A stretch of 64,000 nt of DNA from a virus: IMG/VR virus record IMGVR_UViG_3300025117_000005, positions 12,275 through 76,274 of that record; one strand, written 5' to 3'. The translations under genes and the position numbers were made by a program. This document shows positions 47,655 to 61,458 of this stretch, in pieces (positions within the stretch are counted from its first letter, which is position 1; each line of letters begins with the position of its first letter). Under the pieces are notes generated by a model. The model saw nothing but the letters and a program-made list of their open reading frames with translations, ran no database searches and had not been told where the DNA came from.

Positions 47655-47746
47655 CCCGTCAGGGGCCTAACGGATAATGACGGGCATGGTTTTACCTCCT
47701 TTCTCGACCCGTGGGGATTGGGTCTGGTCAACCCGATCCTCACGGG
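47655..47746 (+). ncRNA. Candidate sRNA: hairpin - anti-SD/anti-start linker - hairpin
   Basis: CCCGTCA/TGACGGG stem, linker CATGGTTTTACCTCCTTTTCT, 16-bp stem 47708-47746. Confidence 0.55.
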
Positions 47747-53692: not shown

Positions 53693-54257
53693 CCACCAGG
53701 TCTTGAACACGTCCGACGAGGCCGCTCACTTTGTTACCAACATTTCCGGATGGGTTTCGAGACACGGACGATTCTACGGAACGGACGAGCGCCTTGCAAG
53801 GTGGGACGGAGCTACCCATGTAGCGTGCGAGGTGTGCGGCATCCCTGTTACGAAGAGTTGGCTGAAGTGTGACGGGTGTATTGAGAAGGCAGACAAGGCG
53901 AAATACGCCGCTCTTCCCAGGAAGCCATGGAACGGCGAACCACTGTATTCGGAAGTAGCCGACGAATACTTCTTTTGTGAATCCGACCTCTCGGAATACC
54001 TGGAGGATCATGAGGCAACCATTGAAGATCTCCGACTTTTAATCTGCGAGCCAGAATATGCTACGGAGATAGATCCAGACGACTATTACAATGACCACCT
54101 GCCAGAAGACCGGGAGGTCGATGCGGTCTTGAAAGAAGCGTTCGAAGCGTTAAACAAGGTGATCCGGGAACACAAGGTTCCCTTGTCATGGCATCCCGGC
54201 AAGTATGCCGTGCAATTTTATCATGGAGGAGGGATAGTCACCCATGATCACACATGA
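53676..54257 (+). CDS. Conserved phage hypothetical protein (zinc ribbon, acidic)
   Basis: GWVSRHGRFYG.DE..ARW.GATH..C..CG. Confidence 0.75.
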   Translation: MPPKDDHQVLNTSDEAAHFVTNISGWVSRHGRFYGTDERLARWDGATHVACEVCGIPVTKSWLKCDGCIEKADKAKYAALPRKPWNGEPLYSEVADEYFFCESDLSEYLEDHEATIEDLRLLICEPEYATEIDPDDYYNDHLPEDREVDAVLKEAFEALNKVIREHKVPLSWHPGKYAVQFYHGGGIVTHDHT

Positions 54258-54477
54258 ACCGATAGTCGAACGATGTTGGGGCTGTTCCAGAATCATAATG
54301 GGCGCACAACCGAATACCGGGTGTTGTTCTGCCTACTTCACTCCGGCCGCGCAGTGGAGGAACGGAAGGAAGTGCGCACTCGCAACACACCTGGAAAGGA
54401 AGGTCCAGGAAGAACAGAAGATAGACCCCCTCAAGAGATCAAAGCAGATCGCCCGAGGGAAGAGAGGGAAGAAATAG
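54244..54477 (+). CDS. PxxKW-family cysteine-rich protein
   Basis: PIVERCWGC.RI...C.AY..PAAQW..G..C.LATH...IDPLKRSK. Confidence 0.75.
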   Translation: MITHEPIVERCWGCSRIIMGAQPNTGCCSAYFTPAAQWRNGRKCALATHLERKVQEEQKIDPLKRSKQIARGKRGKK

Positions 54478-54482
54478 AAAGG

Positions 54483-54599
54483 GATTGGGATGGGTGATGG
54501 CGTAATTGGCAAACGCAGTCTACCGCCAGCAATGGCCACGGGCGTTCCGTATCTCGAACACGGAAGTGCCGGTTCGAATCCTGCTCACCCATCTCAATC
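54483..54599 (+). ncRNA. tRNA-like RNA without canonical anticodon arm or CCA
   Basis: Acceptor TGGGTGA/TCACCCA extended to 15 bp; D arm GCGT-AATTGGCAA-ACGC; T arm GCCGG-TTCGAAT-CCTGC; 50-nt middle with two hairpins. Confidence 0.7.
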
Positions 54600-54620
54600 T
54601 GACCGGAAAGGAGACCCATT

Positions 54621-54803
54621 ATGCCTGGAGTAGGTGATAGTTGGGCAAGAAGAGGAATATGTTTAGGGAATTTCCGTTTAAGAGATAGTTTGGAAGATAA
54701 AAGAGCAAGACGAAAAGCAAGAAGCAAAGTTCATACAGAGATGGAGCAGGAAGCAGAGAACAAAGCGGATAGAAAAGAAACTCGAAAAAGCAGAAAACGG
54801 TAG
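54621..54803 (+). CDS. Small, very basic protein flanked by 13-bp direct repeats
   Basis: SD AAGGAG; Arg/Lys-rich; CCCATCTCAATCT at 54588 and 54825. Confidence 0.5.
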   Translation: MPGVGDSWARRGICLGNFRLRDSLEDKRARRKARSKVHTEMEQEAENKADRKETRKSRKR

Positions 54804-55085
54804 ATCAACCTGGGAGGGGGATCGCCCATCTCAATCTAACCCGAACCGGAGGAGGTTGATGGCAAACTTTAATCGGATAAAGCGTGACTACACTATGATT
54901 ACTAAACTAGGAGGGCTTTATTTCCCTCAGTTAATTGTTGGGGTTCAAGGTTTCTCCATCGCAGAGTGTGACACATGCAAAGAGGCCGTCTGGTGGAGGA
55001 ATCAACTGGTAAAGGCGTTAAAACGAATGATTGATAACGAGTCATAACCGGGGTCGGTGCGAGGCCCCTTAGTTTGAGGAGTAGC

Positions 55086-55412
55086 ATGAAAAGGATACCT
55101 ACTATAATCTGTCTTTGTGGTTCAACACGGTTTACGGCTGATATGCTGATTAAGCAATGGGAACTTACGAAGCAAGGGTTCATCGTCCTGAGTTGGTGTG
55201 CCCTTCCTGATTCCTATTATATCGGGCAAGATAAATCCCACATAGGAGATCAGGAGGGCGTGAAAGAGATCGTGGATGAGGTCCATAAGCGTAAGATTGA
55301 TATTTCCGATGAGGTTCTTGTCTTGAACATTGGTGGATATATTGGGAATTCAACCAGGAGTGAGATTGATTATGCGCTTGCTCATGGGAAGATTGTTAAA
55401 TATGTCGAGTAA
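55086..55412 (+). CDS. DUF4406-like / nucleoside deoxyribosyltransferase-like protein
   Basis: ICLCGSTRF...HKRKIDISDEVLVLN.GGYIG.STRSEIDYA. Confidence 0.8.
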   Translation: MKRIPTIICLCGSTRFTADMLIKQWELTKQGFIVLSWCALPDSYYIGQDKSHIGDQEGVKEIVDEVHKRKIDISDEVLVLNIGGYIGNSTRSEIDYALAHGKIVKYVE

Positions 55413-55867
55413 CCAGAACTGGAGAGGGAATCAATGAGTTACTGGGTCTATTATAGCGTCGAACAATATTCCTGGATCTTGGTTGAGAAATGCGAAACGG
55501 TTACAGATAGCAGTTAATAACCCAACCGGGGAGGGGATCGCCTCTCCCCGATGAGGAGGGAATAGATGGACGGAAATCTTTGCCATGATTGTGGTCTTGA
55601 CAGAATCATACAAAGAAAGGGAAACGATGGTCAGAAAAGAACGAGAATATGTTGTGGAAAGACCTATCTGGGGGACACAGACCTTGACCGTAATAGCAAG
55701 GTCTAAAAAGGAAGCGTTGCAAAAGGTGGATTTGTTTGAAGGAAAAGGGATTGACTTTCAAATCCACCATTACGGTAAGGCCAGGGATGCTTTCACAAAA
55801 GATAACGTCTACCCCGACCCCGAGAAGTGAAGCCCGTCGGTGAACGAACGACAGATAACAAACAAGG

Positions 55868-55975
55868 TTTCAGGGGAGAGCAAATAGTGGGTCATCCCCG
55901 TCAAGGGATACTACCACATTTCGTCATCGCCCGATAGTAGACGAGGAAACTGCTATCGGGTGCTCTCCCCTGAAA
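55868..55975 (+). ncRNA. Three-way-junction structured element
   Basis: Perfect 15-bp IR TTTCAGGGGAGAGCA/TGCTCTCCCCTGAAA enclosing two hairpins. Confidence 0.6.
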
Positions 55976-55996
55976 TTCATTAAGAGGGGGTAAATC

Positions 55997-56227
55997 ATGG
56001 CATGGCATAATGTGACTATCGATCAAATATGTTCAGTTCCCTATCAGTTGACACTCGCATCCGAGATCAACCGGTATAACCAATTCAAGAAAATATTTTG
56101 CATCATCGACGTACACAAACAGCAAATGTACTTCGAAGTAGCCTGGGGCACGCGGAGACATAAAAAAGCGATGATACACCCTACCCTGACGGAAGCTGTG
56201 GAAGCATATAACGCCATACAGGAGTGA
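55997..56227 (+). CDS. Hypothetical protein
   Basis: SD plus ATG. Confidence 0.6.
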   Translation: MAWHNVTIDQICSVPYQLTLASEINRYNQFKKIFCIIDVHKQQMYFEVAWGTRRHKKAMIHPTLTEAVEAYNAIQE

Positions 56228-60535: not shown

Positions 60536-60580
60536 TTCCCAAGCCGAGGGTCGCGGGTTCGAATCCCGTTGCCCGCTCCA
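60536..60580 (+). mobile_element. attP core: 3' half of tRNA-Gly(CCC)
   Basis: TTCCCAA anticodon loop, GCCGA, GCGGG-TTCGAAT-CCCGT T arm, TGCCCGC-T-CCA; 5' half absent; phage genes on both sides. Confidence 0.9.
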
Positions 60581-60584
60581 TTAC

Positions 60585-61112
60585 TTAGACGGTTTCACCT
60601 TGTTCTTGATTTGACGGAATTTCGATAATTTTTTGAACCTGAATAGGTTTTCCCAAGTAAAGGGCCGCCCGTAACAAGAGATCCAGCTTATCCTGAAAGT
60701 TCCCCAAACCCGTATTGCACTTATGACATAGTAACCCCCGAATACGACCATTTCTCCTGTGACTATGGTCTACACTTAACCTCTGTCTGTTCGGAGGCTT
60801 TCCGCATATAGCACAGAGTCCGTGTTGTTCTGCCAATAAGGTTTCATACTGTTCGTTAGAAATTGAGTAACGTCTTTGAAGATGGCGCTCACTGTCCCGA
60901 TCTGGATGTTCCCTGTAATGCTGCTTACATCGTTCTCGGTTCCTTATAACATGTTCGGGAAGGTCTGGCATCGAGATATCACGACAAGCGAGTTCAGCGT
61001 TTTGTGCATCCTCCTTAGAGTCGAACCCGCCCCCACGATGGTATTTCCCTTTGACTATAAATTGATAATACCACCGTTCCCCCTTCTTCGTCTGCTTGGC
61101 GAAAACCGACAT
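60585..61112 (-). CDS. Endonuclease VII-family nuclease fused to an integrase-type arm-binding domain
   Basis: CAICG...LSVDHSH..GRIRGLLCHKCNTGLG.FQD; N-terminal 40 aa 25/40 identical to int N-terminus. Confidence 0.9.
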   Translation of the reverse strand: MSVFAKQTKKGERWYYQFIVKGKYHRGGGFDSKEDAQNAELACRDISMPDLPEHVIRNRERCKQHYREHPDRDSERHLQRRYSISNEQYETLLAEQHGLCAICGKPPNRQRLSVDHSHRRNGRIRGLLCHKCNTGLGNFQDKLDLLLRAALYLGKPIQVQKIIEIPSNQEQGETV

Positions 61113-61458
61113 CAGATTATCCTAATGGTTATTGATCGCCACTGTGGATTCCCCATATCATAAACCCCTCCTTGCCGATTCGTATTTCTCCGATCCGATC
61201 TATCTAACCCCCCACCCTTCCCGCCAAAGAAGGATTACTTCGTCTCCTCTGATTTTTCTCTATCGGCTTTTTATCAGATTGAGATGGATGCACATAGCTA
61301 AGATGTAATGGTCTCCCTCGGAAATCATAATAAGCCGGACTTCTTCCCCGCGTTCCTCTACCTCCCATAAGCCCTCCTTTCATCTAACCGTCACCCCTCC
61401 CCCAAGGGTCACTCCGATCCGATCAATTCCCCCACGTCACCTTAGCCCCACTTCGATA

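What the first reader, a model, noticed from the sequence alone, without database searches (positions are those of the whole stretch)
54483..54599. tRNA mimic with D and T arms but no anticodon loop, no CCA and a 15-bp acceptor helix
Seen: correctly spaced acceptor, TG, D arm (GCGT AATTGGCAA ACGC) and T arm (TTCGAAT loop, one mismatch). The anticodon/variable region is 50 nt, with a GCCA-GCAA-TGGC GNRA hairpin and a TTCCGT/ACGGAA hairpin. Leader and trailer pair further (GATTGGGATGGGTGA / TCACCCATCTCAATC). Inference: the elbow is kept while decoding is lost, as expected of a decoy for tRNA-binding defence nucleases or processing enzymes, or an RNase P/III processing signal. Arm order is not permuted as in YrlA Y RNAs, and it is far shorter than tmRNA.
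Basis: partly seen in the sequence, partly recalled or inferred. Interest (0 to 1): 0.7.

Follow-up and report, generated by a model that had tools for sequence, protein, structure and literature searches.

The report
Phage tRNA look-alike without anticodon loop
A temperate groundwater phage carries one tRNA-derived gene that keeps the tRNA body, has no normal codon-reading loop and is sealed by a 16-bp stem; it is probably a non-decoding RNA cut out of the early transcript, but no relative was found, so selection on it could not be tested.

Summary
At 54491-54592 (+) there is a 7-bp acceptor stem, U8-G9, a canonical D arm, a T arm with one mismatch, no CCA and a 50-nt middle made of two hairpins. 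Leader and trailer extend the acceptor stem to 16 bp.

Rfam's tRNA model scores 34.4 bits (cut-off 29). Default ARAGORN finds nothing. It is the only tRNA-like locus in the complete 76-kb genome.

The nearest relatives by sequence are decoding phage tRNAs with long variable arms: tRNA-Gln by acceptor stem and T arm, tRNA-Asn by D arm. The element therefore looks like one of these whose anticodon loop became a closed GNRA hairpin.

The weak points:
- I found no sequence homologue in IMG/VR, JGI metagenomes, GTDB genomes or syntenic loci, so covariation cannot be tested.
- The middle alone folds no better than shuffled sequence.
- No RNA run was listed.

A decayed tRNA therefore remains a serious rival.

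Features against plain decay: intact stems and elbow nucleotides, and a 9-bp leader-trailer extension. None of 113 ordinary tRNAs had more than 3 bp.

Earlier notes of this scan describe anticodon-less tRNA mimics on other phage DNA. I also met a multicopy analogue in Kitasatospora.

The parts
54482..54490 (+). Leader strand (GGATTGGGA) that pairs with the trailer
   Evidence: Sequence. The 9-bp extension was computed. Inverted repeat I11.
54491..54497 (+). Acceptor stem, 5' strand (UGGGUGA); U1-A72 as in bacterial tRNA-Gln and tRNA-Asn
   Evidence: Rfam tRNA alignment; sequence. The U1-A72 comparison rests on my own knowledge of tRNA identity.
54498..54517 (+). U8-G9, D arm (GCGU-AAUUGGCAA-ACGC) and A26
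   Evidence: The D arm matches 19 of 20 bases of the phage tRNA-Asn(GUU) family L027.
54518..54543 (+). Hairpin 1 at the anticodon-arm position: a 4-bp stem, a 3x3 internal loop and a 4-bp stem capped by the GNRA loop GCAA. It has no 7-nt loop.
   Evidence: Fold of the middle. It is the optimal fold when the acceptor, D and T arms are fixed.
54545..54565 (+). Hairpin 2 at the variable-arm position: a 6-bp stem with the 9-nt loop AUCUCGAAC. Rfam alternatively reads it as the anticodon arm CCGUA-UCUCGAA-CACGG.
54568..54584 (+). T arm GCCGG-UUCGAAU-CCUGC, with a C51.U63 mismatch
54585..54592 (+). Acceptor stem, 3' strand (UCACCCA), and discriminator U. The discriminator is paired with A54490, and no CCA is encoded.
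54592..54600 (+). Trailer strand (UCUCAAUCU) pairing with the leader. It overlaps the motif CCCATCTCAATCT, which recurs at 54825 (+) and, with one mismatch, at 61276-61288 (-).
54244..54477 (+). Upstream gene (DUF6811); its stop codon lies 4 nt before the helix
   Evidence: Pfam PF20657, E = 7e-16; coordinates.
54621..54803 (+). Downstream ORF of 60 aa, very basic, with no family match. GGAG lies 9 nt after the helix and the ATG lies 20 nt after it.

Best explanation
This is a tRNA-derived gene that no longer reads codons. It descends from the phage lineage of U1-A72 tRNAs with a long variable arm (tRNA-Gln and tRNA-Asn type). The acceptor, D and T arms and the elbow nucleotides are intact. 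The anticodon loop has been replaced by a closed hairpin capped with a GNRA tetraloop, and the long variable arm remains.

It lies 4 nt after the stop codon of one early gene and 20 nt before the start codon of the next, so it is transcribed inside the rightward early operon. A 9-bp leader-trailer extension seals the acceptor end into a 16-bp helix, which would be about 21 bp if stacked on the T stem.

Most likely (inferred, not shown) host enzymes cut at this module: RNase III in the long stem and/or RNase P and a 3' endonuclease at the tRNA-like ends. That would separate the two cistrons and release a stable tRNA-shaped RNA of about 100 nt.

I cannot say whether the released RNA then acts in trans as a tRNA mimic. 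I put processing or punctuation at about 0.3 and a trans-acting mimic at about 0.2.
For: - Rfam tRNA scores 34.4 bits, above the cut-off of 29, and this is the only such locus in the complete genome. ARAGORN finds no tRNA or tmRNA.
- All three retained stems are intact apart from one T-stem mismatch, and the tertiary nucleotides are in place.
- The five-arm fold has -50.5 kcal/mol against an MFE of -51.2. It is the optimum once the acceptor, D and T arms are fixed.
- The leader-trailer extension is 9 bp; it is 0-3 bp in 113 ordinary tRNAs. With the extension the region has z = -4.2.
- The T-arm-plus-acceptor 21-mer recurs only in two phage tRNA-Gln with long variable arms, L001 and L002. The D arm and the best match of my covariance model are a long-arm phage tRNA-Asn.
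- There is no promoter-like or terminator-like site on the + strand between the flanking genes.
- The same operon has at least two other modules closed by 15-16-bp stems, at 47708-47746 and at 55866-55978 (z = -7.0).
- The sequence is identical in four independent samples.
- RNAs of the same architecture exist elsewhere. A Kitasatospora family has a tetraloop-closed anticodon arm. Two ARAGORN-negative but Rfam-positive tRNA-likes lie upstream of relatives of the neighbouring gene 55074-55412.
Against: - No sequence homologue was found, so there is no covariation or conservation evidence for hairpins 1 and 2.
- The 50-nt middle is no more stable than shuffled sequence (z = -1.1), and the 102-nt core alone has z = -1.3.
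- There is no evidence on expression or on RNA ends.
- A leader-trailer helix that includes the discriminator may hinder RNase P rather than help it (my own knowledge).
- The trailer motif recurs at two places without a tRNA-like, so part of the helix may serve another purpose. The recurrence is statistically marginal.
- The parallels in L108 and L109 have lost G18-G19 and have no sealing helix, so they may equally be decaying tRNAs.
Confidence: 0.45

Rival explanations
1. It is a recently disabled tRNA gene, that is, a pseudogene. A long-variable-arm phage tRNA suffered a ~9-nt insertion in its anticodon loop (or a ~28-nt insertion after the D arm) and is now functionless. It is still intact elsewhere only because too little time has passed.
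For: - The nearest sequence relatives are ordinary decoding tRNAs.
- No homologue with the same odd middle was found.
- The stability of the middle is at chance level.
- There is a T-stem mismatch.
- The aberrant tRNA-likes in L108 and L109 have lost G18-G19, which looks like decay.
Against: - Every other stem and tertiary nucleotide is intact.
- The insert forms a centred 4-bp GNRA hairpin. I estimate about 0.003 for this by chance in a 16-nt loop, and the estimate is post hoc.
- The 9-bp leader-trailer extension is outside the range of 113 tRNAs, and decay does not explain it.
Confidence: 0.27
2. It is a working tRNA with a fifth arm. Hairpin 2 is the anticodon arm (loop UCUCGAA, anticodon UCG, reading CGA/CGG as arginine), and hairpin 1 is an extra arm between the D and anticodon arms.
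For: - The Rfam alignment takes this reading.
- ARAGORN calls tRNA-Arg(UCG) in 90 of 413 positive virtual deletions, typically when about 28 nt are removed.
- Earlier notes of this scan report phage tRNAs with extra arms.
- CGA is the rarest Arg codon in the phage, at 8%.
Against: - C33 stands in place of the near-universal U33, and the stem closes with A.C or else the loop is 9 nt.
- A20 and A/G73, the ArgRS identity elements, are absent (my own knowledge of identity rules; sequence).
- An insert at position 26 would break the stacking of the D and anticodon stems.
- The discriminator is paired and no CCA is encoded.
- After deletions ARAGORN calls many different tRNAs, so its calls are not diagnostic.
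Confidence: 0.1
3. It is a cis-acting stem for the downstream gene (mRNA stabiliser, RNase III site or binding site for a regulator of the CCCATCTCAATCT motif), and the tRNA-like interior is incidental.
For: - The motif recurs 18-19 nt upstream of two consecutive start codons and once more on the minus strand.
- Other long stems lie upstream of ribosome-binding sites in the same operon.
Against: - The recurrence of the motif is marginal: 6 matches against 2.15 expected, and 3 of 100 shuffles reach 6.
- The interior scores as a tRNA at E = 5.5e-7 for the genome, which an incidental filler would not.
Confidence: 0.1

Closest known systems
Phage tRNAs of normally short-armed isotypes that carry a long variable arm: tRNA-Gln(CUG/UUG) in L001 and L002, tRNA-Asn(GUU) in the L027 family
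   Same: U1-A72 acceptor stem. The acceptor stem (both strands) and 16 of the 17 T-arm bases are identical to L002. The D arm matches L027 at 19 of 20 bases. All have a long hairpin between the anticodon position and the T arm.
   Different: Those have a normal 5-bp anticodon stem with a 7-nt loop and are called by ARAGORN. Here the loop is 16 nt and closed by a GNRA hairpin, the discriminator is U and paired, and the flanks seal the acceptor end.
tRNA-like processing signals inside longer transcripts: plant mitochondrial t-elements, and mascRNA at the MALAT1 3' end (from my own knowledge)
   Same: A tRNA-shaped fold with no decoding role, embedded in a longer transcript, where RNase P and RNase Z cleavage defines the ends of the neighbouring RNAs.
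   Different: Those are eukaryotic or organellar. Processing has not been shown here, and they have no long sealing stem.
YrlA, a bacterial and phage Y RNA with a tRNA-like domain (Rfam RF02553)
   Same: A non-decoding RNA with a tRNA-like elbow and a long stem formed by its 5' and 3' ends.
   Different: In YrlA the arm order is permuted and the stem binds Ro60. Here the order is that of a tRNA, YrlA gives no match and the phage has no TROVE/Ro60 gene.
Multicopy tRNA-like genes of Kitasatospora with a closed anticodon arm
   Same: Long-variable-arm tRNA body with the anticodon arm closed by a tetraloop hairpin. The same 12-mer GCCAGCAATGGC sits at the same position, and my covariance model aligns all five arms at 44.6 bits.
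   Different: Different acceptor stem (GGAGAGG, G73) and D arm, no 3x3 internal loop and no sealing helix. There are 19-23 matches per genome, with a conserved upstream motif. The shared 12-mer was the search term, so common descent is not shown.

Membership tests
Canonical tRNA (Rfam RF00005) | Score at or above the family's gathering cut-off | tested here: met
   34.4 bits against a cut-off of 29. The default whole-window scan missed it.
Canonical tRNA (Rfam RF00005) | 7-bp acceptor stem, D arm with G18-G19, T arm with a UUCRANY loop | tested here: met
   one C.U mismatch in the T stem.
Canonical tRNA (Rfam RF00005) | 5-bp anticodon stem directly after position 26, with a 7-nt loop carrying U33 and a purine at 37 | tested here: not met
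   At that position there is a 26-nt closed hairpin. The only 7-nt reading (hairpin 2) has C33, an A.C closing pair and needs a ~28-31-nt insert. Default ARAGORN finds no gene.
Canonical tRNA (Rfam RF00005) | Free discriminator with an encoded or addable CCA end, and aminoacylation | tested here: inconclusive
   No CCA is encoded, and the discriminator U pairs with A(-1) within a 16-bp helix. CCA addition and charging cannot be tested with these tools.
Type II (long-variable-arm) tRNA architecture | Structured variable arm of more than 10 nt between the anticodon arm and the T arm | tested here: met
   Hairpin 2 is 21 nt, flanked by G and GU.
YrlA / Y RNA | Match to RF02553, a permuted tRNA-like domain and a Ro60 (TROVE) partner | tested here: not met
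   No YrlA match at E <= 10 locally or at E <= 1 in the genome. No TROVE domain in the genome. The arm order is not permuted.
tmRNA | tRNA-Ala-like ends enclosing a tag reading frame | tested here: not met
   ARAGORN's tmRNA search is negative. The element is 102 nt with no internal frame, and it has G3-C70 rather than G3.U70.
Intron-containing tRNA (archaeal bulge-helix-bulge type) | Two 3-nt bulges on opposite strands, staggered by a 4-bp helix | tested here: not met
   In hairpin 1 the two 3-nt stretches face each other as a symmetric internal loop. With the intron option ARAGORN gives tRNA-Ala(GGC) with a 9-nt intron at a non-canonical site, C37 and no G3.U70.
tRNA-like processing element (t-element or mascRNA kind) | Cleavage by RNase P and RNase Z (or RNase III) that defines the ends of the neighbouring RNAs | not testable with these tools
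   Only the position inside the operon and the fold are known. No RNA run was listed.

The most novel reading that the evidence does not exclude
The element is a selected, trans-acting tRNA mimic without an anticodon. After excision from the early transcript it would engage host factors that recognise the tRNA body (defence tRNases, CCA-adding or modification enzymes, synthetases, EF-Tu) while being uncuttable in the anticodon loop and invisible to the ribosome. It would be one member of a still undescribed class of non-decoding tRNA-shaped RNAs in phages and actinobacteria.
Probability: 0.2. Interest if true: 0.7.

Novelty: new variant of a known kind. Interest (0 to 1): 0.42.

Why it matters
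Phage tRNA genes are currently explained by codon supply or by replacing tRNAs that host defences destroy. A tRNA body deliberately stripped of its anticodon would point to a third use, either as a processing handle in phage operons or as a mimic that occupies tRNA-binding proteins.

Standard tRNA finders miss such genes. ARAGORN missed this one, the two in L108 and L109, and several over-long tRNA-likes met during the searches. They are therefore likely under-counted in phage annotation.

The case here rests on a single sequence, so at present it is a lead and not a demonstration.

Tried and rejected
The contigs of the 64 homologues of the 205-aa neighbour and of the one DUF6811 relative (P0066) could therefore not be inspected.
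- Homologue searches that found nothing related:
  - the T-arm-plus-acceptor 21-mer in IMG/VR, which hit only L001 and L002, both ordinary tRNA-Gln;
  - D loop plus T loop with a long gap, which hit type II tRNAs and unrelated odd tRNA-likes;
  - hairpin-1 12-mer plus T loop in JGI metagenomes and GTDB genomes, which hit coding sequence, a tmRNA, a weak YrlA-like RNA and the Kitasatospora family;
  - U1-A72 over-long tRNA-likes in IMG/VR, none alike in the middle;
  - 23 loci syntenic by RecT or by the 205-aa gene;
  - DUF6811 relatives;
  - the INPHARED phage collection by blastn.
- A 19-of-20 match to hairpin 1 in L008 lies inside a 588-aa ORF and is chance.
- Sequencing runs: no RNA holder was listed. 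The four DNA runs laid are identical, so there is no population variation to use.
- Host: not identified.
- Rejected readings: archaeal intron; YrlA or Ro60; tmRNA. The 98-aa minus-strand ORF and the 47-aa plus-strand ORF over the element have no family match.
- The Gln codons CAG-CAA inside hairpin 1 are most simply part of a GNRA hairpin. The Kitasatospora copies vary the loop as GCAA, GCGA and GUGA.
- The CCCATCTCAATCT motif is only marginally enriched.
- Codon usage gives no clue.
- No RNA-related enzyme was found among about 35 phage proteins scanned.
- The apparent link to the DUF4406-like gene (3 of 16 loci) is too thin to call. Pfam and PDB profile searches gave no function.

Full report
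**What the window is.** The window is G000:C1:12275-76274 of a complete 76,274-bp virus record with direct terminal repeats. It is a temperate tailed phage. It has a tape-measure protein, a gpA-type large terminase, RecT, an SbcC-like nuclease, two tyrosine recombinases and a methylase-SNF2 fusion. The same sequence occurs, without a single difference over 617 bases, in contigs of four runs from four groundwater or soil studies. In three of them it is part of a 76,175-nt contig. The element is therefore real DNA and not an assembly artefact.

**The observation.** These are a 7-bp acceptor stem (54491-54497 with 54585-54591), U8-G9, a D arm GCGU-AAUUGGCAA-ACGC, A26, a 50-nt middle, a T arm GCCGG-UUCGAAU-CCUGC with one C.U mismatch, discriminator U, and no CCA. 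The nucleotides that build the tRNA elbow and core are all there: U8, A14, A15 with U48, G18-G19, A21, U54-U55-C56, A58 and G53-C61.

Default ARAGORN finds no tRNA or tmRNA in the window, and the default Rfam scan finds nothing. With laxer filters the Rfam tRNA model matches 54491-54592 at 34.4 bits (cut-off 29), with E = 5.5e-7 for the genome, and it is the only such match in the phage.

**The leader-trailer helix.** Leader and trailer pair for 9 bp beyond the acceptor stem, two of them G.U and the first involving the discriminator. This gives a 16-bp helix. Among 113 distinct ARAGORN tRNAs in the loci I fetched, this extension was 0-3 bp.

**The middle.** The resulting five-arm structure (-50.5 kcal/mol) is within 0.7 kcal/mol of the unconstrained optimum. 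Hairpin 1 sits where the anticodon arm belongs. It has a 4-bp stem, a symmetric 3x3 internal loop and a 4-bp stem capped by GCAA. Hairpin 2, with 6 bp and a 9-nt loop, sits where a long variable arm belongs, flanked by one and two unpaired bases.

The 50-nt middle on its own is no more stable than shuffled sequence (z = -1.1). The fold is plausible but gets no statistical support from energy alone. Only the construct that includes the sealing helix stands out (z = -4.2).

**Other formal readings.**
- Rfam treats hairpin 2 as the anticodon arm (CCGUA-UCUCGAA-CACGG, anticodon UCG) with a 31-nt insert.
- ARAGORN most often calls tRNA-Arg(UCG) when about 28 nt are deleted in silico. This reading needs C33 and an A.C closing pair, and it lacks the arginine identity elements A20 and A/G73.
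- With its intron option ARAGORN gives tRNA-Ala(GGC) with a 9-nt intron at a non-canonical site and C37, on a body without G3.U70.
- After deletions ARAGORN calls dozens of different tRNAs, so these calls are not diagnostic.
- An archaeal bulge-helix-bulge intron does not fit, because the two 3-nt stretches face each other and are not staggered.

**Descent.** The 21-mer covering the T loop, the 3' T stem and the 3' acceptor strand recurs in IMG/VR only in two unrelated phage contigs. There it belongs to tRNA-Gln(CUG) and tRNA-Gln(UUG), which unusually carry a long variable arm. A covariance model built from the element alone scores best (48.6 bits) on a family of 95-97-nt phage tRNA-Asn(GUU). 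That family also has a long variable arm and U1-A72, and its D arm matches at 19 of 20 bases. The body is thus that of a long-armed U1-A72 phage tRNA. What is special here is the anticodon arm and the sealed end.

**Search for homologues.** I found none with the same middle. The following were all negative or gave chance hits:
- three IMG/VR pattern scans;
- one scan each of JGI metagenomes and GTDB genomes;
- 23 loci syntenic by RecT or by the 205-aa neighbour;
- relatives of the adjacent DUF6811 gene;
- the INPHARED phage collection.

No run on record as RNA was listed. Neither covariation nor expression could therefore be tested.

**Parallels that are not shown to be homologues.**
- The gene 55074-55412 is weakly DUF4406-like and has 15 relatives in IMG/VR. 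Two of them, L108 and L109, carry a tRNA-like of 98 and 130 nt on the same strand 0.3-0.9 kb upstream. Both pass the Rfam cut-off (34.3 and 33.6 bits), both are missed by ARAGORN, and both have a remodelled middle. Their acceptor stems differ, their D loops have lost G18-G19, and they have no sealing helix. They may be decaying tRNAs or another version of the same idea.
- The pattern scan hit two Kitasatospora species. These carry 19-23 dispersed matches per genome to a long-armed tRNA-like of about 95 nt, whose anticodon arm is a continuous tetraloop-capped hairpin. The loops vary (GCAA, GCGA, GUGA, and UUCG in a divergent subgroup), and one loop-closing pair changes from A-U to G-C. The family occurs in 8 of 81 sampled genomes of its family, with a tandem array in one. 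I found no paper on it. The shared 12-mer was my search term, so it is not independent evidence of kinship.
- Earlier notes of this scan describe anticodon-less tRNA mimics and extra-armed tRNAs on other phage DNA. I treated these as leads only.

**Context and likely mechanism.** The element begins 4 nt after the stop codon of the DUF6811 gene. It ends 9 nt before the GGAG and 20 nt before the ATG of a 60-aa basic ORF. No promoter-like or terminator-like site lies between these genes on the + strand, so it should be part of the early polycistronic RNA.

The same operon contains a 16-bp hairpin at 47708-47746. It also contains a 113-nt three-way junction closed by a 16-bp stem at 55866-55978 (z = -7.0), which matches no Rfam family. 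This suggests that long stems punctuate the transcript.

My best explanation is that the element is a non-decoding tRNA derivative cut out of the transcript at its long stem and/or at its tRNA-like ends. That would separate the cistrons and release a stable tRNA-shaped RNA. All steps after 'it folds like this and lies in the operon' are inference. I give this 0.45, of which about 0.2 is for a trans-acting mimic.

**Rivals.**
- A recently disabled tRNA (0.27) is the main rival. It is favoured by the lack of homologues, the chance-level stability of the middle and the ordinary nature of the nearest relatives. It is disfavoured by the intact stems and tertiary bases, the centred GNRA hairpin and above all the 9-bp sealing extension.
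- A working five-armed tRNA-Arg(UCG) (0.1).
- A purely cis-acting stem with an incidental interior (0.1).
- The remainder is unassigned.

**Comparison with known families.** It is not a canonical tRNA, because the anticodon-arm criterion was tested and not met. It is not YrlA: there is no match, no Ro60 gene and no permutation. It is not a tmRNA. It works most like tRNA-like processing elements such as plant mitochondrial t-elements or mascRNA (from my own knowledge). It is built most like the long-armed phage tRNAs and the Kitasatospora closed-arm family.

I rate it a new variant of a known kind, with moderate interest. The anatomy is clean and unusual, and finders miss such genes. But the case rests on one sequence, with no evidence of conservation or expression.

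Noticed in passing
window 55866-55978 (+): A 113-nt three-way-junction RNA closed by a 16-bp stem (arms 55868-55882 and 55961-55975 are perfect). It folds at -59.1 kcal/mol with z = -7.0, lies just upstream of the gene starting at 55997, and has no Rfam match at E <= 1.
   Followed up: partly
window 47708-47746 (+): A 16-bp hairpin without a U tail in the same early operon. Its 5' arm shares GGGATTGGG with the leader of the tRNA-like element.
   Followed up: partly
window 54588-54600 (+), 54825-54837 (+), 61276-61288 (-): The motif CCCATCTCAATCT occurs twice exactly and once with one mismatch. The two plus-strand copies lie 18-19 nt before consecutive start codons. Enrichment is marginal: 6 matches with up to 2 mismatches against 2.15 expected.
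   Followed up: partly
window 60541-60585 (+): The attP core looks like the 3' half of a tRNA-Gly(CCC) gene, from the anticodon loop to the encoded CCA. It lies between the integrase stop and the stop of the convergent gene 60585-61112. It could identify the host.
   Followed up: no
L043:995-1091 (-), L044:7172-7268 (-); handles G001, G002, G074: Kitasatospora genomes hold 19-23 dispersed matches to a long-variable-arm tRNA-like gene of about 95 nt. Its anticodon arm is a closed tetraloop hairpin and a conserved motif lies about 30 nt upstream. ARAGORN miscalls the copies as tRNA-Leu(CAG), tRNA-Pro(CGG) or undetermined. The family is present in 8 of 81 sampled genomes of its family, with a tandem array in one. 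I found no paper on it.
   Followed up: partly
L108:2106-2203 (+), L109:1472-1601 (+): Two ARAGORN-negative tRNA-likes that pass the Rfam tRNA cut-off (34.3 and 33.6 bits). Acceptor and T arms are intact, the D loops lack GG, and the middles are 47 and 76 nt. Each lies upstream of a relative of the DUF4406-like gene 55074-55412. The one in L109 is clearly derived from tRNA-Leu.
   Followed up: partly
L027:2051-2146 (-) and the like in L028, L030, L032, L033, L035, L036; L001:4764-4851 (-); L002:7214-7299 (-): Large uncultured phages carry tRNA-Asn(GUU) and tRNA-Gln(CUG/UUG) built on a long-variable-arm body, which textbooks reserve for Leu, Ser and Tyr.
   Followed up: no
L026:12389-12494 (-), L029:5836-5935 (+), L071, L072, L073, L076, L078, L086, L091, L095: A varied set of over-long (100-120 nt) tRNA-like genes in IMG/VR contigs with perfect acceptor and T stems. 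ARAGORN does not call them. One, in L072, contains a second T-arm-like hairpin.
   Followed up: no
L037:1891-1998 (-): A soil metagenome contig with a weak YrlA-like match (30 bits, cut-off 69) that contains the same 12-mer as hairpin 1.
   Followed up: no
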